Positions 11,931-26,930 of a DNA stretch of 32,000 nt are shown here, piece by piece. Where the stretch lies: positions 1 through 32,000 of the forward strand of contig JBAZMW010000001.1 in the NCBI GenBank assembly GCA_041649575.1, written 5' to 3'. Position numbers and translations under genes: made by a program. Below the pieces are notes generated by a model. It was not told where the DNA came from. It searched no databases and saw nothing but the letters and a program-made list of their open reading frames with translations. Within the stretch, counting starts at the first letter, position 1. Each line of letters starts with the position of its first letter. Origin of the DNA: Patescibacteria group bacterium. GTDB lineage: Bacteria > Patescibacteriota > Patescibacteriia > 2-01-FULL-39-33.

Positions 11931-12294
11931 GGAGTTTGAGAGCGATTTGTTTTTATGAATAACCATTATTATCTTTATATTTTAACTAATAAATACAATA
12001 GAGTATTGTATACTGGAGCGACTAGTAACTTATTAAGAAGAGTTTGGGAACACAGGAATAAGTTAAATAAAAATTCTTTTACTGAAAGGTATAATGTTAA
12101 TAAGTTAGTCTATTATGAAGTATATTATTCTGTTACGGACGCCATTTTCAGAGAAAAACAAATCAAAGGAGGCGACAGAACAAGCAAGGAGACACTGATT
12201 AATAAATTTAATCCGGAGCGGAAGGATTTATATGGAGAAATGGTAGAAAATTAAAAACACGGGATTGCTTCGTCGTTTCACTCCTCGCAATGAC
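11868..12294 (+). mobile_element. Putative mini mobile unit: GIY-YIG ORF bracketed by terminal inverted repeats
   Basis: The left end is gtcatcgcgagggagcgatagcgacc...gcgatccc (11868-11928). The right end is gggattgcttcgtcgtttcactcctcgcaatgac (12261-12294). Its reverse complement, gtcattgcgaggagtgaaacgacgaagcaatccc, matches both extremities of the left end. Confidence 0.5.
11955..12254 (+). CDS. GIY-YIG nuclease-family protein (UPF0213-like)
   Basis: It has the N-terminal YYLYILTN...VLYTGATSNLLRRVWEH, the GIY/YIG-type motif with a conserved R and E. It is small (99 aa) and AT-rich. Confidence 0.85.
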   Translation: MNNHYYLYILTNKYNRVLYTGATSNLLRRVWEHRNKLNKNSFTERYNVNKLVYYEVYYSVTDAIFREKQIKGGDRTSKETLINKFNPERKDLYGEMVEN

Positions 12295-13162
12295 ATTTAT
12301 GAAACAACAACGCATTAATAAGATTCTACAACAAACGCGTGATGTTTACAATAAAATAGCGCTGGACTTTTCGGACACTCGCGGTCATTGGTGGAAAGGC
12401 ATGGGCAGTTTTAATAAATATGTCAGACCGGGTGACCGAGTGCTAGATTTGGGTTGCGGTAATGGCCGGATGGCGGAAATTTTTGAGGGTTCGCAAATCG
12501 AATACTTGGGAATTGACAATAGCGAGGAGTTGATAAAAATAGCTCGTGGGAGATTTAAAAATAAATCTTGGGTGAGGTTTAGGGTGGGTGATGTATTGCA
12601 GTTGTCATCCCGAGGAGCCGATGGCGACGTGGGGGTCTCGTCTAATATTGAAGGAGGCGGGATTGCCACCAGTCTCGCCGAGCCTAGGCGGACGGTCGCT
12701 TCACTCCCTCGCAATGACAGTTTATTTGATTTGGTTTTGCTGATAGCGGTTTTGCATCACCTTCCGACCAAGGAGCTGCGACTTAAAGTTTTAGAAAATA
12801 TTTTTCAGAGTTTAAGGCCCGGTGGCCGGCTGGTGATGCTAAACTGGAATTTATGGCAGGTGTTTGGCAGTTTCGATTATAAATTTCGCTATTGGAAATA
12901 CCTTTTTAACTGGTCCGAAAAAATAAAGCGTGGCGTTTGGGGTTTTTCTGACGCTTTTGTACCCTGGAAGATGAGGGCCGGCCAAAAGCTGGCCGAGCAG
13001 GACTGGCAGTTACGCTATGTGCATTCTTTTACCATTAGAGAAACCAAAAAATTATTACGGCAGGCCGGCTTTGTGGTTGAGGGTATTACTTATGAAAAAA
13101 GGGATAAAAGAGTGGGCGTTTTGTCGGGCGACCACTCATTGGCCGTGGCAATAAAAAAATGA
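12290..13162 (+). CDS. Class I SAM-dependent methyltransferase (Methyltransf_11-like) carrying an in-frame repeat-derived insertion
   Basis: Motif I is VLDLGCGNGR, and FDLVLLIAVLHHLP follows later. The more likely start is the ATG at 12299, because 12290 lies inside the repeat. Residues ~106-144 (SSRGADGDVGV...SLPRNDS) are encoded by the 12604-12718 element. Confidence 0.8.
   Translation: MTFMKQQRINKILQQTRDVYNKIALDFSDTRGHWWKGMGSFNKYVRPGDRVLDLGCGNGRMAEIFEGSQIEYLGIDNSEELIKIARGRFKNKSWVRFRVGDVLQLSSRGADGDVGVSSNIEGGGIATSLAEPRRTVASLPRNDSLFDLVLLIAVLHHLPTKELRLKVLENIFQSLRPGGRLVMLNWNLWQVFGSFDYKFRYWKYLFNWSEKIKRGVWGFSDAFVPWKMRAGQKLAEQDWQLRYVHSFTIRETKKLLRQAGFVVEGITYEKRDKRVGVLSGDHSLAVAIKK
12604..12718. repeat. 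115-bp MITE-like palindromic element of the GIY-YIG-associated repeat family, inside the methyltransferase CDS
   Basis: Its termini, gtcatcccgaggagccgatggcgac (12604-) and gtcgcttcactccctcgcaatgac (-12718), are inverted copies of each other. Its right 60 nt (12659-12718) are a near-identical reverse complement of 11868-11928, including a 34-nt perfect match. Confidence 0.6.
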
Positions 13163-13174
13163 TAGAATGAGGAT

Positions 13175-14554
13175 ATGAAAATCAACTCTAATATTTTCAA
13201 AGAATACGATATCCGTGGCAAGTATCCCGGTGAACTGGACGAGCAGACAACTCAAGCTTTGGGTTTGGCTTTTGCCAAAATGATCAAGACCAAAAGAATC
13301 ATTGTCGGCCGCGACGCGCGGCCGGAATCAGAAAAAGTTTTTTGGCCACTCTTGTTTGGTCTGGCCAAAGGCGGCATGCAAATTTATGATTTGGGGGTTT
13401 GCTCGACGCCGGAATTGTTTTTCGCGGTCGGCGACAAAAAGATCGAAAGCGGCGTCATGATCACCGCCTCTCATTCTCCGGCCGGTCAGACCGGTTTCAA
13501 GTTTTGTAATGAGCAGGGTGTTGTTTATGGCCTAAAAACCGGGCTCAAAAAATTAAAATACCTAGCCGATCAAGAAATTAAAAAAATAAATAAACCGGTG
13601 TTGCAGCCGGCCAAAGTCGAAAAAGTCGCTTTGGCGGCGTTGGCCAAAGATTATCAGAAATTCGCTTTTTCTTTTGTGAAGCCGGCGGCGATAGCCGGTT
13701 TTAAAATGGTTATAGACGCTTCCGGCGGCTCGAGCTACAGATTAATAAATCGCCTGGTCCAGAAACTACCGCTGCAGACAATAAAAATAAATTTCAAAGA
13801 AAAAGACAAATATCCAGACCACGACTTGAATCCGCTGCTTTCGGAAAATCAACGAGTGGCTGCCAGAGAAATAAAAAAGCAACAAGCCGATTTGGGCGTG
13901 GTTCTTGACGGCGACGGTGATAGAATAGTTTTTTTGGATGAACGAGGCAGATTTGTCGAGCCTTATTATCTTAACTGCTTGCTGGCGGAAATATTTTTGA
14001 AGCTTAGGCCCAAAATGACAGTGCTGTTTGACGCGCGTTTGAATCTGGCGATCACCGAAGTGATAAAAAACAATGGCGGCCGGCCGCTTAGCCACCGCAG
14101 CGGCTATGCCAACTTCATTGATTTTATGACCAAAAAAAAATTACTGTTCGGCTGCGAAAACTCCGGCCATTTTCTGATTAATTTCGCCCTGAAAAAAAAG
14201 CGGCAATATGTTTACGGCGACACTTTAATAATTTTATTGCTGATTTTGAAATATTTGAAGGAGAAAAATTTAAAATTATCGCAAGCGATTGAGCCGTTTG
14301 AAAAAAAATACGTCATTTCCGGCGAACAGAATTTTAGAGTCAAGGATTTTAAAAAACTGATGCTAAAAATTAAAAAAGAATTCAGGGGAAACCGTCTGGA
14401 GACGATTGATGGTTTGTCTGTCTGGAGCCAAGGCGGGGACTGGTTTTTCAATATCCGGCCTTCGCATACCGAGCCGGTAGTGCGTCTGAACGTTGAAGCC
14501 AAAAATAAAAAAATCATCAATCAGTTGGTCAAAAAAATCAAATTGATAATTTAA
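13175..14554 (+). CDS. Phosphomannomutase/phosphoglucomutase (alpha-D-phosphohexomutase family)
   Basis: The phosphoserine loop is ITASHSPAGQTGFK (S-H-S-P rather than the usual S-H-N-P). The metal loop is LDGDGDRIVFLDE. A sugar-binding GCENSGH is present. Confidence 0.85.
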   Translation: MKINSNIFKEYDIRGKYPGELDEQTTQALGLAFAKMIKTKRIIVGRDARPESEKVFWPLLFGLAKGGMQIYDLGVCSTPELFFAVGDKKIESGVMITASHSPAGQTGFKFCNEQGVVYGLKTGLKKLKYLADQEIKKINKPVLQPAKVEKVALAALAKDYQKFAFSFVKPAAIAGFKMVIDASGGSSYRLINRLVQKLPLQTIKINFKEKDKYPDHDLNPLLSENQRVAAREIKKQQADLGVVLDGDGDRIVFLDERGRFVEPYYLNCLLAEIFLKLRPKMTVLFDARLNLAITEVIKNNGGRPLSHRSGYANFIDFMTKKKLLFGCENSGHFLINFALKKKRQYVYGDTLIILLLILKYLKEKNLKLSQAIEPFEKKYVISGEQNFRVKDFKKLMLKIKKEFRGNRLETIDGLSVWSQGGDWFFNIRPSHTEPVVRLNVEAKNKKIINQLVKKIKLII

Positions 14555-14563
14555 TTTTATATT

Positions 14564-14836
14564 ATGCCTGAAGAAAAAATTTCTGCCGAAGTGGCCAAAA
14601 ATATCGGTGGACAACTAGGCATTGACTGGTCGAAATTCGATGTCGAGCAGTTTAGAAAGGGGATGGAGGTGGAATTGGAGCACGGCAAGAGGAGTGCCGA
14701 AACCAATGTCACCAATAATAACCCATTAATTACTGGCAAGATTGCCCTGGCGCATTTAAATGAGTTCCCCGATTACTATACGCGGCTGGATAAGATGGAA
14801 AAAGAGGCGGATGATTTTTGGGGCAAGAAAAATTAG
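14564..14836 (+). CDS. Small conserved hypothetical protein (DUF5661-like by recollection)
   Basis: It is a 90-aa ORF with the motifs EVELEHG...TNVT and IALAHLNEFPDYYTRL. It starts 10 nt after the upstream gene. The family assignment is from memory only. Confidence 0.55.
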   Translation: MPEEKISAEVAKNIGGQLGIDWSKFDVEQFRKGMEVELEHGKRSAETNVTNNNPLITGKIALAHLNEFPDYYTRLDKMEKEADDFWGKKN

Positions 14837-14849
14837 TTAAAAAATAATT

Positions 14850-14886
14850 AGAGCCGGGGGAAGCGGATGCTCGCTCCCTCGGCTCT
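14850..14886. terminator. Bidirectional terminator shared by convergent genes
   Basis: The stem agagccggggg (14850-14860) / ccctcggctct (14876-14886) has one G-T wobble, plus an inner agcg/cgct stem. T-rich tracts follow on both strands. Confidence 0.65.
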
Positions 14887-14919
14887 TTGTTTGGTTCGAT
14901 GTACGGCTGCGGCTACCCC

Positions 14920-16311
14920 CTACCGGTGAGCTCTGGCCATACGGCCTGGTTTCCGGTTCCGCGGCGGGAACTCGCGATGCAGCAATTCGTCGATTCGGTG
15001 CCGCAACGCCCAGCCCAAGTTGCCCATACGCGAGGCAATCTCTTGGAGATTGAACAGCTCGTCCGGTTCGTAGACCTGGTCGGCCATCCGGGCGCGTTGC
15101 TTGCTGGTCATGACTCGCAGCGGCTTGGTCAGCGAGTCCATTTCCGCGTAGGGATTGAACTGCGACAGAATCTGCCTTACCTCGCGGTCGGCGTGGACGT
15201 ATTTGGCCGCTTGACCACCCCAGGCCAACGAGCGGAAAGACTGGTCCACCACCCGCCAACGTTGAGGCAGTGACAGATCGGTGCGGTCCGGCTTGACGTC
15301 GAGCACGATGGGAATCTCCGGATGCTGGTGAAGCACAAACTTGATCCAGAAGCAGACTTCCCGCAGCGCCGCCAGATCAAGGTCGGGTACGCCGCCGCGT
15401 TGTCGGCCATTGAGGTGGACACAGGCCAGCCGACGCAGATAGGCAGCCAGCGCATAGGCCTTGATGAACAGCTCAAAGGCCATATCCTCGTGGGCCACTT
15501 CCGGGTTGGTCTTGAGAAGCACACACTTGGCGACTCGCGGCGGCAGAAGCCCTTGCATGATCCGCATGAAGAGCAGGGCTTCGGCCGTGGTGGCGATGAC
15601 GATTTCCCGAACCGGCTCAGTCGGCTTGGATTCCTCCGAAAGGACAAGCGGCTGCTCCGGCGTGGCTACTCCCAAATCACTGGCGTACGCGCCGACTTCA
15701 GCCCAATGACCCATGCGCCAAGACCAGGCCAAGTGCGGCGGCTTGAGCTCGGAGTCACCTTCCTCGCCCCCCGGCCAGCCGATGATTTCACGGACGCGGC
15801 TGTAGATCAGCTTAGTCGGCCAAAACGTGTTAGCCGTATTGATAGCCGCGGCCAGTTCGACAAGCTTGAAGCCCTTGACTAGCGCCGCTTGCCGGACAGC
15901 CTGGGCTATGTTGGTGGTGGCTCCGCCGACGAAACAGGGATCGGCGAACAGGTTGCAGGTGACGGCCTCGACGCAGATACCCATAGGCGCGGCAGCCCTA
16001 ACAAACGCCTCACCCGTTTCCACGATTTCCCGCCGTGACGACTTGAGAGAAAGGCTGAGGTCGCTGTCATGGAGCTGTGCAATCCTGATGTTGCGCCTGG
16101 CCATACCTTCCAAGACCCGGCTCACCATCTGTGACGCGAAGGACTTGTTCTGGAAGAGGTTGTGTCCGTCGGTCATCATACTCCAGATGCCCATGCCCCC
16201 GGTTTCACTGGTTTCGTCGTCCAGCACGAAGGGACGATTCTCCAGCTTTATTGCTACTCGCACCAGCCTATCGTCCCTTGAGGCTGGCGGCTTCTTTCCC
16301 GTTTTTTTCAT
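14920..16311 (-). CDS. GC-rich divergent xylose-isomerase-fold (TIM-barrel, metal-dependent sugar isomerase-like) protein
   Basis: By-eye collinear matches to class I xylose isomerase as I remember it: MGIWSM~FGLWTV, LHDSDL~FHDDDL, TCNLFADPCFVGGATTN~TTNLFTHPVFKDGGFTAN, GWPGGEEG~AWGGREG, SEESKPTEP~IEPKPNEP, NPEVAHEDMA~NPEVGHEQMA, HLNGRQ..PDLDL~HIDLNGQ..YDQDL, LDVKPDRT~FDFKPPRT. SD-like aaaggacgagccATG precedes the start. Confidence 0.7.
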   Translation of the reverse strand: MKKTGKKPPASRDDRLVRVAIKLENRPFVLDDETSETGGMGIWSMMTDGHNLFQNKSFASQMVSRVLEGMARRNIRIAQLHDSDLSLSLKSSRREIVETGEAFVRAAAPMGICVEAVTCNLFADPCFVGGATTNIAQAVRQAALVKGFKLVELAAAINTANTFWPTKLIYSRVREIIGWPGGEEGDSELKPPHLAWSWRMGHWAEVGAYASDLGVATPEQPLVLSEESKPTEPVREIVIATTAEALLFMRIMQGLLPPRVAKCVLLKTNPEVAHEDMAFELFIKAYALAAYLRRLACVHLNGRQRGGVPDLDLAALREVCFWIKFVLHQHPEIPIVLDVKPDRTDLSLPQRWRVVDQSFRSLAWGGQAAKYVHADREVRQILSQFNPYAEMDSLTKPLRVMTSKQRARMADQVYEPDELFNLQEIASRMGNLGWALRHRIDELLHREFPPRNRKPGRMARAHR

Positions 16312-16404
16312 GGCTCGTCCTTTCCATTAATTCGCACTTCCCAATGTTGCACAATGTTGTCCAAGGTCCGTCTCGCCAACAAACCAGTTGGTGAGTTTCA
16401 TTAC

Positions 16405-16432
16405 AGTATAGCAAAAAGAATATTTTTGTCAA
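16405..16432 (-). promoter_or_regulatory. Near-consensus sigma70-type promoter for the xylose-isomerase-like gene
   Basis: The minus strand reads TTGACA (16432-16427), a 16-nt spacer, then TATACT (16410-16405). It predicts a ~85-nt leader. Confidence 0.45.
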
Positions 16433-16498
16433 TGCTTATTTAATGTTGTTTTTTAGAAAAAAAGCACATAGAAGAAAATTGCAGTTATAATAATTAGT

Positions 16499-16704
16499 CT
16501 TACTTTCTCTTTCTCTAGGAGAAAGAAAAAGCTAACAAAAAGAAAGAGTCGCGAGCTAAATGAAAATTTAGACAAAACAGGGTTGTTCTCGCTAATTTTA
16601 ATAACTCACAAAAGCCACCAGTAAACTGGTGGCTTTTGCTCAAACAAATTAAAATTTACGCTCGAACCCCGCCTGTTTTGTTGCTAAATTTTCATGCGCT
16701 CGCA
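16499..16704 (+). repeat. Structured repeat, copy A (polypyrimidine/polypurine hairpin plus a long imperfect hairpin)
   Basis: It aligns end to end with 23670-23856. Hairpin 1 is ctttctctttctc-tag-gagaaagaaaaag. The long hairpin has arms 16551-16602 and 16647-16703 (gcgagc...atgaaaatttag...acaaaacagg / cctgttttgt...ctaaattttcat...gctcgc). The apical loop carries an extra hairpin, aaaagccaccag-taaa-ctggtggctttt. Confidence 0.8.
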
Positions 16705-16714
16705 GAATTGGTTT

Positions 16715-17662
16715 TTAGATTAAACCAATAATTTTTTTAATTTCTTTAATATTGGCTTGGGCGATTTGGCTGGCCTTTTCCCGGCCTTCATCAATTATTT
16801 TCCAAACTTGTTTCGGGGTTTTTTTGAGCTGTGATTTTTTCTTTCGAAAATCGGCAAAATAAGCGGCGATACCAGCGGCAATAATTTTTTTGGTATCCGA
16901 CATTTTTTCAGGATTGAACTGGCCCGACATATTAGTCGCAAAAGCATCGTAAATAGCTTTGAGATTTTGCACTCCTGCCGGCGTGGTGACGGCCTTGGCC
17001 AGTTTTTGCGAGATTGTCTCCGGCTCCTCGTCGATGCCCAGCCAATGCTTGTCGCCAAGCGATTTGGACATCTTGCTTTCCGGGGAGATTAAGCTCATTA
17101 TTTTTGGCGTCTCTGTCAGTAGCGGCTTGCTCTCGGGAAAATAGTTAGTTTGGTATTTATTATTAAACCAACGGGCACAGTCGCGAGTGAGCTCGACGTG
17201 CTGGACCTGGTCCTGGCCGACCGGCACCAGCCCGCCCCTGTAGAGCAAGATGTCGGCGGCCTGGAGCACCGGATAATCAAACAGTCCCATGTTGACATTT
17301 TTGGCTTGGCGGCCGGCTTTGTCTTTGTATTGGGTCATGCGCTCCATTTCGGCCACTGGAGTGACCGTGTTGAAAATCCAGGCCAGCTCGGTGCACTCCG
17401 GCACTTGCGATTGAACAAAAAGAGTTGATTTGTCTGGGTCTAGCCCGGCGGCCAGATAGTCGCAGACAAGATTGAAAACCTGTTCGCGCTTGTCGGCCGG
17501 CGAGTAATTTTCGGTGATTGAGTGGTAGTCGGCGATAAAGAAAAAACAGTGATACCGGGCGCTATTTTGGATGTCGACCCAGTTTTTTAAGGCGCCTAAA
17601 TAATTGCCCAAATGAAGCGGGCCGCTGGGTTGTGTGCCGGAAACGACGACTGGTTTGGTCAT
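16715..17662 (-). CDS. trpS: Tryptophan--tRNA ligase
   Basis: It has the HIGH-type PSGPLHLGNYLGA and the KMSKS motif (SKMSKSLG). The 315-aa length is typical. Confidence 0.95.
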   Translation of the reverse strand: MTKPVVVSGTQPSGPLHLGNYLGALKNWVDIQNSARYHCFFFIADYHSITENYSPADKREQVFNLVCDYLAAGLDPDKSTLFVQSQVPECTELAWIFNTVTPVAEMERMTQYKDKAGRQAKNVNMGLFDYPVLQAADILLYRGGLVPVGQDQVQHVELTRDCARWFNNKYQTNYFPESKPLLTETPKIMSLISPESKMSKSLGDKHWLGIDEEPETISQKLAKAVTTPAGVQNLKAIYDAFATNMSGQFNPEKMSDTKKIIAAGIAAYFADFRKKKSQLKKTPKQVWKIIDEGREKASQIAQANIKEIKKIIGLI

Positions 17663-23669: not shown

Positions 23670-23856
23670 TTTACTTTTTCTTTTCTAGAAAAGAAAAAGC
23701 TAACAAAAAGAAAAGTCGCGAGCTAACATGAAAATTTAGACAAAACAGGGTCGTTCTCGCTAATTTTAATAACTCGCTCACTAACGTTCGCTCAAACAAA
23801 TTAAAATTAACGCTCGAATTCCGCCCGTTTTGTTGCTAAGTTTTCATAGGCTCGCA
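23670..23856 (+). repeat. Structured repeat, copy B
   Basis: It is collinear with 16499-16704. Hairpin 1 is ctttttctttt-ctag-aaaagaaaaag (perfect). The long-hairpin arms are conserved and the apical region is shorter and different. It starts 7 nt after the porD stop. Confidence 0.8.
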
Positions 23857-23869
23857 AAAAAGTAAAAAT

Positions 23870-26824: not shown

Positions 26825-26840
26825 TAAAAAAGTTTATTAA

Positions 26841-26866
26841 AATTCCCCCGATTAATCGGGGGAATT
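26841..26866. terminator. Terminator hairpin (perfect palindrome)
   Basis: The palindrome is aattcccccgatt/aatcgggggaatt, flanked by A and T tracts. Confidence 0.7.
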
Positions 26867-26930
26867 TTAATATTGACAAAGGCAAATCTTTTTAGTAAAA
26901 CCGACATCCCTAGTTTTTTCCTATAATCTT

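What the first reader, a model, noticed from the sequence alone, without database searches (positions are those of the whole stretch)
14887..16440. Divergent xylose-isomerase-fold enzyme with an apparently altered metal site
The 463-aa product is collinear with class I xylose isomerase across the barrel. These are motif pairs matched by eye against the Streptomyces enzyme as I remember it.
- Retained: the catalytic His/Asp (LHDSDL), the Glu/Lys of the E-P-K-P strand (SEESKPTEP), NPEVAHE (Glu plus His ligands), PDLDL (two Asp ligands) and LDVKP (Asp ligand).
- Changed: the position equivalent to the Asp of H-I-D-L-N-G reads H-L-N-G, so one metal-1 carboxylate seems replaced by His or shifted.
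- Changed: W-G-G-R-E-G is W-P-G-G-E-E-G.
- Added: a ~35-residue insertion precedes that motif.
- Unrelated: the first ~40 and last ~110 residues match nothing I recognise.

No sugar kinase, transporter or regulator is adjacent. The gene is monocistronic with its own strong promoter and long leader. An isolated, diverged isomerase-fold gene of foreign composition next to phosphohexomutase in a reduced genome suggests a non-canonical substrate rather than xylose catabolism.
Basis: partly seen in the sequence, partly recalled or inferred. Interest (0 to 1): 0.7.

Follow-up and report, generated by a model that had tools for sequence, protein, structure and literature searches.

The report
Rare acquired xylose-isomerase-like enzyme, altered metal site
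A tiny-genome Patescibacteria bacterium carries a horizontally acquired, very rare relative of xylose isomerase; it keeps the whole sugar-isomerase active site except one metal-binding aspartate, which is a histidine as in rhamnose isomerases, so it is probably an active sugar isomerase whose substrate is unknown.

Summary
The 463-aa ORF (14920-16311, minus strand) is real and is a distant homolog of class I D-xylose isomerase (XI). It scores E 4.8e-20 against TIGR02631 but only 72 bits against a cut-off of 447. PDB XIs match at E~1e-13 and about 24% identity, and Foldseek TM is 0.73. Pfam finds nothing.

Nineteen XI active-site positions map one-to-one. Eighteen keep the XI residue; metal-1 ligand Asp245 is His299. 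All nineteen are invariant in the only two relatives (43-44% identity) found among about 15 billion proteins. Asp245 was Asp in 78/78 canonical XI loci. L-rhamnose isomerases carry His at this position, so metal site 1 is an XI/RhaI hybrid.

The gene is foreign: GC3 is 0.74 against 0.45-0.59 for 21 neighbouring genes. It sits in a variable slot of an otherwise conserved SBP5-RNaseJ-TrpRS-[slot]-PGM-MTase block, and that slot is empty in the closest relative. Three assemblies agree base for base. It has an 11/12 promoter match and a terminator hairpin.

The relatives lie beside other TIM-barrel sugar enzymes and a Gfo/Idh/MocA oxidoreductase. One sits at a GC step on a DPANN-archaeon-like contig.

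Verdict: a new, rare XI-family variant, most likely a two-metal aldose-ketose isomerase. Substrate unproven.

The parts
14920..16311 (-). CDS for a 463-aa divergent class-I-XI-like protein (NCBI: hypothetical protein WC518_00085, Patescibacteria group bacterium)
15415..15417 (-). Codon CAC for His299, at the position of metal-1 ligand Asp245 of Streptomyces XI; invariant in all 3 family members
   Evidence: PMC11485043
16069..16071 (-). Codon for His81 (= XI His54, the ring-opening base), paired with Asp84 (= Asp57)
   Evidence: role of His54 from PMC8070043
15298..15633 (-). Segment encoding the remaining metal ligands and catalytic Lys: E227 and K229 (E181, K183), E271 and H274 (E217, H220), D310 and D312 (D255, D257), D338 and K340 (D287, K289)
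16405..16432 (-). Sigma-70-type promoter-like site TTGACA-16 nt-TATACT with a TG extension (11 of 12), lying in AT-rich host-like DNA
16312..16397 (-). 5' leader of about 87 nt with an SD-like GGAAAGGA at 16325-16318; no Rfam match; fold z -0.9
14838..14886 (-). Intrinsic-terminator-like G+C-rich hairpin (14886-14850) followed by a U-rich tract
   Evidence: z -3.0
14850..16390 (.). High-GC (0.56-0.67) block of foreign composition inserted in the variable TrpRS-PGM slot

Best explanation
The gene encodes an active, metal-dependent aldose-ketose isomerase of the xylose-isomerase family. It was acquired by horizontal transfer into a Patescibacteria genome and is expressed from its own promoter.

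Proposed mechanism, inferred from residue conservation and from established XI and L-RhI chemistry:
- It forms a (beta/alpha)8 barrel with a C-terminal helical arm.
- The His81-Asp84 pair opens the sugar ring.
- Metal 1 is held by Glu227, Glu271, His299 and Asp338 and binds substrate hydroxyls.
- Metal 2 is held by Glu271, His274, Asp310 and Asp312. Together with Lys229 it promotes the C1-C2 hydride shift.
- Trp43, Phe122, Trp179 and Phe53 (the last probably from the neighbouring subunit) form the hydrophobic pocket.

Replacing one M1 carboxylate with an imidazole gives an E-E-H-D site. This is a hybrid of XI (E-E-D-D) and L-rhamnose isomerase (E-D-H-D). It should favour Mn, Co, Zn or Fe over Mg and may change which substrate hydroxyls are chelated.

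The substrate is a C5 or C6 sugar and is not identified.

Shown here: homology, ligand mapping, family-wide conservation, foreign origin and the insertion site. Inferred: catalysis, metal preference and substrate.
For: Homology is specifically to class I XI:
- TIGR02631 E 4.8e-20.
- PDB XIs at E~1e-13 as a single sequence and 1e-17 as a family profile. Class II XIs reach only E 0.13-1.3 and no L-RhI is found.
- AF2 model pLDDT 76.6, pTM 0.78. All top 50 Foldseek PDB hits are class I XI, with target-normalised TM 0.69-0.74.

Active site:
- The 19 mapped XI active-site positions are all among the 121 of 463 columns invariant in the three family members. Eighteen keep the XI residue.
- Position 245 is His in all 3 members and Asp in 78/78 canonical XI loci.
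- PMC11485043 states that SrXI Asp245 corresponds to His281 of P. stutzeri L-RhI, whose M1 ligands are E219, D254, H281 and D327.
- XI ligand sets and the roles of His54 and Lys183 are given in PMC8070043.
- The three insertions fall in alpha-to-beta loops on the non-catalytic face in the model's DSSP.

Foreign origin and real insertion:
- GC3 is 0.74 and K/(K+R) 0.34, both outliers among 22 genes.
- Synteny SBP5-RNaseJ-TrpRS-[slot]-PGM-MTase-rSAM is conserved in relatives. The slot is empty in L003 and holds unrelated ORFs in L004-L006.
- The sequence is identical in the NCBI, ENA and Logan assemblies.

Expression signals: promoter match 11/12, SD-like sequence and terminator hairpin.
Against: - No activity, metal or expression data exist.
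- In the AF2 model the loops carrying M2 ligands (residues 275-280 and 304-312) have pLDDT below 50. The model was built from an alignment dominated by XI sequences, so the Foldseek match to XI is partly circular.
- With only three family members, conservation statistics are thin.
- No partner enzyme for the ketose product (kinase, transporter) lies in the 32-kb window.
- In the other two loci the neighbours are AP_endonuc_2 barrels and a Gfo/Idh/MocA oxidoreductase, a context typical of keto-sugar pathways in which barrel enzymes act as lyases, hydratases or epimerases rather than isomerases.
Confidence: 0.6

Rival explanations
1. It is simply a diverged but functionally ordinary D-xylose/D-glucose isomerase. 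It would let the bacterium feed scavenged xylose or glucose into pentose-phosphate or glycolytic metabolism, and the Asp245His change would be neutral for specificity.
For: All XI substrate-contact and catalytic residues other than Asp245 are kept: W16, F26, H54, D57, T90, F94, W137, E181, K183, E186, N215, E217, H220, N247, D255, D257, D287 and K289. Class I XI is the only significant relative. A second XI-like lineage much closer to XI (P0017, 379 bits to TIGR02631) also has His at 245.
Against: It scores 72 bits against the 447-bit equivalog cut-off. Asp245 contacts O4 of the substrate analogue in XI (PMC8070043). The review states that M1 chelates O2/O4 in XI but O2/O3 in L-RhI, which carries the His. 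No xylB, transporter or regulator lies in the window. Asp245 is invariant in 78/78 canonical XIs.
Confidence: 0.2
2. It uses the XI scaffold for different chemistry on an oxidised or rare sugar, such as epimerisation, dehydration or beta-elimination of a keto-sugar. It would act together with Gfo/Idh/MocA dehydrogenases and AP_endonuc_2 barrels, as in keto-sugar and levoglucosan-type pathways. The Patescibacteria copy would then be an orphan piece of such a pathway.
For: In L002 the gene lies between an AP_endonuc_2 fragment and a Gfo/Idh/MocA oxidoreductase whose best NCBIfam match is levoglucosan dehydrogenase (88.6 bits, far below the 650 cut-off). In L001 it is followed by two AP_endonuc_2 proteins. 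From my own knowledge, a His as the third metal ligand is typical of the single-metal E-D-H-E epimerases of this superfamily.
Against: Both XI metal sites, the His-Asp ring-opening pair and Lys183 are all retained and invariant, which is the isomerase signature. The family has no Pfam AP_endonuc_2 match. No such partners occur in the window.
Confidence: 0.13
3. It is a non-functional passenger: a recently transferred gene that is not used, or an assembly artefact.
For: Composition is unameliorated. There is no functional partner nearby. The slot is a variable region. The family is extremely rare.
Against: The reading frame is intact and full length, with all catalytic residues present. It has a near-consensus promoter, an SD-like sequence and a terminator. 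Both junctions are reproduced base for base in three assemblies made with different assemblers, although probably from the same or overlapping reads.
Confidence: 0.07

Closest known systems
Class I D-xylose (glucose) isomerase, Streptomyces/Arthrobacter/Thermus type (TIGR02631; PDB 8YUD, 4HHM, 1XIB, 1BXB)
   Same: Collinear (beta/alpha)8 barrel plus C-terminal helical arm. It keeps the His54-Asp57 pair, Lys183, Glu186, Lys289 and the full M2 site (E217, H220, D255, D257). It keeps three of the four M1 ligands and the hydrophobic pocket residues W16, F26, F94 and W137.
   Different: Identity is only 23-26%, and the score is 72 bits against the 447-bit cut-off. M1 Asp245 is His, and R140 is not kept. 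It has three conserved insertions in alpha-to-beta loops (13-18, 5 and 8 aa), about 27 extra N-terminal residues and about 45 extra C-terminal residues. It has no xyl operon context.
L-rhamnose isomerase (P. stutzeri type 2HCV/2I56; E. coli RhaA 1D8W)
   Same: Same superfamily and the same two-metal hydride-shift mechanism. M1 contains a His (His281 in PsL-RhI) at the position equivalent to XI Asp245, as in this protein (PMC11485043).
   Different: There is no detectable sequence affinity: TIGR02635 gives 14.7 bits against a cut-off of 531, and no L-RhI chain is found with the family profile. The bridging ligand is Glu as in XI, not Asp as in L-RhI. There are no rhaB or rhaD neighbours.
P0017-type XI-like proteins (metagenomic, 390 aa)
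   Same: An XI-family protein with His at position 245 (motif FDIHLN), scoring below the XylA equivalog cut-off.
   Different: It is much closer to canonical XI (379 bits) and has canonical length with no insertions. His243 and Asp245 look swapped rather than the Asp being lost. Identity to the window protein is only about 25%.
AP_endonuc_2 (PF01261) sugar-phosphate isomerase/epimerase TIM barrels
   Same: Same fold superfamily. Such genes are neighbours of the two other family members.
   Different: The window protein has no PF01261 match even at E<=10. It carries the two-metal XI site, not the single-metal E-D-H-E site (the latter from my own knowledge).

Membership tests
D-xylose isomerase XylA, class I (TIGR02631 equivalog) | Score above the curated equivalog cut-off | tested here: not met
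   71.9 bits against a cut-off of 447; relatives P0002 and P0003 score 38.9 and 46.8 bits
D-xylose isomerase XylA, class I | (beta/alpha)8 barrel with a C-terminal helical extension | tested here: met
   AF2 pTM 0.78; Foldseek top 50 hits are all class I XI, TM 0.69-0.74 over 428-451 columns. Caveat: the model's alignment was XI-rich
D-xylose isomerase XylA, class I | Catalytic His54-Asp57 pair and Lys183 | tested here: met
   H81, D84 and K229, invariant in the family
D-xylose isomerase XylA, class I | Metal site 1 made of four carboxylates: Glu181, Glu217, Asp245, Asp287 | tested here: not met
   E227, E271 and D338 are kept but Asp245 is His299. The position is Asp in 78/78 canonical loci; ligand set from PMC8070043
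D-xylose isomerase XylA, class I | Metal site 2: Glu217, His220, Asp255, Asp257 | tested here: met
   E271, H274, D310 and D312. Model confidence in these loops is low
D-xylose isomerase XylA, class I | Genomic association with xylulokinase or xylose uptake and regulation | tested here: not met
   No such gene in the 32-kb window; the rest of the 245-kb contig was not visible
D-xylose isomerase XylA, class I | Xylose/glucose to xylulose/fructose isomerase activity | not testable with these tools
   Needs an enzyme assay
L-rhamnose isomerase | M1 site Glu-Asp-His-Asp | tested here: inconclusive
   The His is present (H299) but the second ligand is Glu as in XI, so the site is a hybrid
L-rhamnose isomerase | Sequence membership (TIGR02635 or similarity to solved L-RhIs) | tested here: not met
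   14.7 bits against a cut-off of 531; no L-RhI chain at E<=10 with the family profile
Pfam AP_endonuc_2 (xylose isomerase-like TIM barrel) | Match to PF01261 above the gathering score | tested here: not met
   No Pfam family at all at E<=10, although canonical XIs in the same searches carry PF01261

The most novel reading that the evidence does not exclude
This is a third, extremely rare class of xylose-isomerase-fold enzyme with a hybrid XI/rhamnose-isomerase metal site and a new sugar specificity. It would spread as foreign high-GC DNA into ultra-small symbionts of both domains: a Patescibacteria (CPR) bacterium here and a Woesearchaeota-like DPANN archaeon in L001. There it would supply a salvage step for a host-derived sugar.
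Probability: 0.15. Interest if true: 0.7.

Novelty: new variant of a known kind. Interest (0 to 1): 0.45.

Why it matters
XI is one of the best-studied and most widely used industrial enzymes, and its four-carboxylate metal-1 site is treated as invariant. A natural lineage that keeps everything else but carries the rhamnose-isomerase histidine is a ready-made test of how that ligand sets metal preference and sugar specificity. It could also yield a new rare-sugar isomerase.

Biologically, it is a clear and apparently recent gene gain in a reduced Patescibacteria genome. If the DPANN locus is real, the same rare gene has entered two unrelated lineages of ultra-small symbionts. That would point to a shared selective need or a shared donor.

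Tried and rejected
- Pfam gave no hit for the protein at E<=10. This reflects Pfam's sensitivity and does not count against homology.
- PHROGs gave no hit for the protein, and only one marginal match (phrog_21105, unknown function, E 0.0078) among nine L162 proteins scanned. The IMG/VR scan with the family alignment found no relative. A phage origin is therefore not supported.
- Rfam on 14300-17000 gave only two sub-threshold chance matches, and the leader fold has z -0.9. There is no evidence for a riboswitch or leader regulator.
- No flanking direct repeats, target duplications or tRNA mark the insertion. The window, L001 and L002 share no DNA outside the CDS. A shared mobile cassette is not supported.
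- The metagenome scan meant to extend L001 found nothing. The second scan, with the family alignment, returned only canonical XIs at 23-29% identity, so there are no new family members.
- L001 was extended by another 10 kb through P0144, but the end of the high-GC region was not reached.
- The NJ tree places the family as a deep branch outside the sampled class I and class II XIs. It was built from few sequences by a distance method and I do not rely on its topology.
- MAFFT misaligned E. coli RhaA at position 245. I took the XI/L-RhI correspondence from the structural review instead.
- Literature searches for XI in Patescibacteria or Woesearchaeota found nothing relevant.
Full report
**Observation**

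The window holds a 463-aa ORF at 14920..16311 on the minus strand. It lies in a 1.5-kb block of GC 0.56-0.67, against a background of about 0.44. The long ORFs in other frames of the block are by-products of the high GC. Homology fixes the reading frame.

Pfam finds nothing even at E<=10. Other searches give significant matches:
- NCBIfam TIGR02631 (Arthrobacter/Streptomyces-type xylose isomerase) matches residues 70-386 at E 4.8e-20. The score is 71.9 bits against a curated cut-off of 447.
- phmmer against PDB sequences finds 36 distinct class I XI sequences at E 4e-13 to 7e-8, aligned over residues 40-397/412.

**Residue mapping**

The alignment to 8YUD chain A uses Streptomyces rubiginosus numbering: W16, F26, H54, D57, W137, E181, K183, E217, H220, D245, D255, D257, D287 and K289 all fall where expected.

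| XI residue | Window residue |
|---|---|
| W16 | W43 |
| F26 | F53 |
| H54 | H81 |
| D57 | D84 |
| T90 | T118 |
| F94 | F122 |
| W137 | W179 |
| E181 | E227 |
| K183 | K229 |
| E186 | E232 |
| N215 | N269 |
| E217 | E271 |
| H220 | H274 |
| D245 | H299 |
| N247 | N301 |
| D255 | D310 |
| D257 | D312 |
| D287 | D338 |
| K289 | K340 |

MAFFT and tblastn give the same mapping. The only ligand change is Asp245 to His.

XI ligand sets and roles come from PMC8070043:
- M1 is Glu181, Glu217, Asp245 and Asp287.
- M2 is Glu217, His220, Asp255 and Asp257.
- His54 acts in ring opening and Lys183 in isomerisation.
- Asp245 also contacts O4 of xylitol.

- The insertion before W179 is 13-18 residues, not about 35. 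Two further insertions of 5 residues (VATPE, 215-219) and 8 residues (254-261) exist.
- WPGGEEG aligns without a gap to WGGREG.
- The C-terminal part is helical and aligns with XI's C-terminal arm.

**Structure**

The AlphaFold2 model has pLDDT 76.6 and pTM 0.78. It retrieves only class I XIs as its top 50 PDB matches, at E about 3e-14 and target-normalised TM 0.69-0.74 over 428-451 columns.

In the model's secondary structure all three insertions sit in alpha-to-beta loops, on the face opposite the active site. They contain family-invariant motifs (RVR..IGW and VATPE), so they are probably structural or interface elements.

Two caveats apply. The alignment used for modelling was mostly XI sequences. 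The M2-ligand loops have pLDDT below 50.

**How unusual is it**

Only two real relatives exist:
- P0002: 456 aa, 44% identity.
- P0003: 484 aa, 43% identity.

This comes from two searches. One was a word-indexed search of 5.8 billion clusters. The other was an exhaustive phmmer over 1.84 billion representatives of about 15 billion proteins. Everything else is canonical XI at E>=4e-7. A back-translated scan of JGI metagenome contigs with the family alignment returned 79 loci, all canonical XIs at 23-29% identity. IMG/VR gave none.

Across the three members, 121 of 463 positions are invariant, and these include all 19 mapped active-site positions. That is the pattern expected of an enzyme under selection, not a decaying copy.

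Position 245 is His in all three members and Asp in 78 of 78 canonical loci.

One other XI-like representative, P0017, reads FDIHLN instead of FHIDLN. It also has His at 245 while scoring 379 bits to TIGR02631. The substitution is therefore rare but not unique.

**Meaning of the His**

The 2024 review of L-rhamnose isomerases (PMC11485043) makes three relevant statements:
- P. stutzeri L-RhI binds M1 through Glu219, Asp254, His281 and Asp327.
- The only ligand differences from Streptomyces XI are Glu217/Asp254 and Asp245/His281.
- M1 chelates substrate O2/O3 in L-RhI but O2/O4 in XI.

The window protein is therefore an E-E-H-D hybrid: XI-like at 217 and RhaI-like at 245. Its sequence affinity, however, is to class I XI only. 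The family profile gives class I XI at E 1e-17 and class II XI at E 0.13-1.3, and finds no L-RhI. TIGR02635 scores 14.7 bits.

I infer that the enzyme keeps XI's two-metal hydride-shift mechanism. From coordination chemistry, an M1 site with an imidazole ligand should favour Mn, Co, Zn or Fe over Mg and may reposition the substrate. Neither point is shown.

**Genomic setting**

The record is a Patescibacteria MAG on a 245-kb contig. Every other gene in the window is housekeeping:
- methyltransferases, YchF, FolD, SHMT, NUDIX and a radical-SAM protein;
- PGM/PMM, DUF5661, TrpRS and RNase J;
- an SBP_bac_5 protein, DsbA-like protein, PFOR subunits and UvrA.

No sugar kinase or regulator is present. 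The only transport-related gene is the lone SBP_bac_5 solute-binding protein about 3.5 kb away.

The gene is an outlier among the window's 22 genes. Its GC3 is 0.74 against 0.45-0.59, and its K/(K+R) is 0.34 against 0.47-0.92.

In the closest genomes found through TrpRS (67-75% identity), the order SBP5-RNaseJ-TrpRS-[slot]-PGM-MTase-rSAM is conserved. The slot is about 85 nt and empty in L003. It holds unrelated ORFs in L004, L005 and L006. The XI-like gene is thus a lineage-specific insertion into a variable slot, and its adjacency to phosphohexomutase is incidental.

The locus is identical base for base in the NCBI contig, an ENA 116-kb contig and a Logan contig spanning window 12671-16579. 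Assembly chimerism is therefore unlikely, though the reads may be shared between these assemblies.

Expression signals:
- TTGACA-16-TGcTATACT at 16432..16405, an 11/12 match.
- An SD-like GGAAAGGA 6 nt before the ATG.
- A G+C-rich hairpin plus U tract after the stop codon, z -3.0.
- A leader of about 87 nt with no Rfam match and no significant fold.

**Context of the relatives**

In L002 (3.3 kb, GC about 0.53) the gene lies between the C-terminus of an AP_endonuc_2 barrel and a Gfo/Idh/MocA oxidoreductase. That oxidoreductase's best NCBIfam match is levoglucosan dehydrogenase, far below the cut-off.

In L001 the gene is followed by two AP_endonuc_2 proteins. These neighbours suggest sugar or keto-sugar metabolism in the native setting. 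They keep open a rival in which the barrel does chemistry other than simple isomerisation.

L001 is also odd in composition. GC steps from 0.34 to 0.57 in the spacer just upstream of the gene. The low-GC side encodes a topoisomerase I that is 65-67% identical to Candidatus Woesearchaeota/Nanoarchaeota proteins. The high-GC side runs for at least 21 kb of mostly unannotatable ORFs, nearly all on one strand. I cannot tell a true island in a DPANN genome from a chimeric contig.

**Verdict**

This is a real, divergent XI-fold enzyme with a conserved change at M1, acquired horizontally. 'Non-canonical substrate' remains a hypothesis, because the rest of the XI substrate pocket is intact.

It is not a XylA equivalog: both the score and the M1 ligand tests fail. 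It is not an L-RhI. It most likely works like both, as a two-metal aldose-ketose isomerase (confidence about 0.6).

I rate it a new variant of a known kind, of moderate interest. Interest would be higher if the CPR/DPANN pattern and a new specificity were confirmed.

Noticed in passing
window 16500-16707 and 23670-23860: Two copies (81-85% identical) of a roughly 200-nt MITE-like palindromic repeat. Copy 1 lies between the TrpRS stop codon and the XI-like gene's promoter. It folds into one ~155-nt hairpin (dG -76 kcal/mol, z -10.4), and its tip is the TrpRS terminator hairpin at 16609-16638. Copy 2 (z -5.5) lacks that tip. The promoter at 16405-16432 lies outside the repeat. The Logan contig breaks inside copy 1.
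   Followed up: partly
L001 9149-10000 and L162 1-20414 (JGI 3300009373, Ga0118719_1000197): A sharp GC step from 0.34 to 0.57 lies directly upstream of family member P0003. The low-GC side looks like a Woesearchaeota-type DPANN archaeon by TopA (65-67% identity). The high-GC side runs for at least 21 kb of ORFs, nearly all on one strand and almost none with Pfam or PHROG hits, including five tandem ORFs of about 105-112 aa at L162 16333-18108. It could be an island or a chimeric contig.
   Followed up: partly
P0017 / L165 1938-3110: An XI-like protein (379 bits to TIGR02631, below the 447 cut-off) reads FDIHLN instead of FHIDLN, so His243 and Asp245 appear swapped. This is a second natural lineage with His at the M1 position. 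It sits next to a Glu/Gln-tRNA synthetase on a 3.3-kb contig.
   Followed up: partly
L003 2045-2132; L004 6049-6975; L005 5962-6633; L006 6024-7364: The TrpRS-PGM slot holds different content in each related Patescibacteria genome: empty, or ORFs of 308, 223 or 446 aa. L003, L004 and L005 also carry a 405-408-aa gene between PGM and the methyltransferase that the window lacks. This looks like a local hotspot of gene turnover.
   Followed up: partly
window 26835-26872: A perfect 38-nt palindrome (19-nt arms, no spacer; TATTAAAATTCCCCCGATT / AATCGGGGGAATTTTAATA) lies just after the TctB-like ORF.
   Followed up: no
window 12290-13162 and ~12006-12254: The methyltransferase upstream of PGM is 290 aa, against 242-250 aa in relatives. 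It has a Gly/Ser/Asp-rich insert that splits the Pfam methyltransferase match into two stretches. An 82-aa GIY-YIG ORF is called between it and the radical-SAM gene.
   Followed up: no
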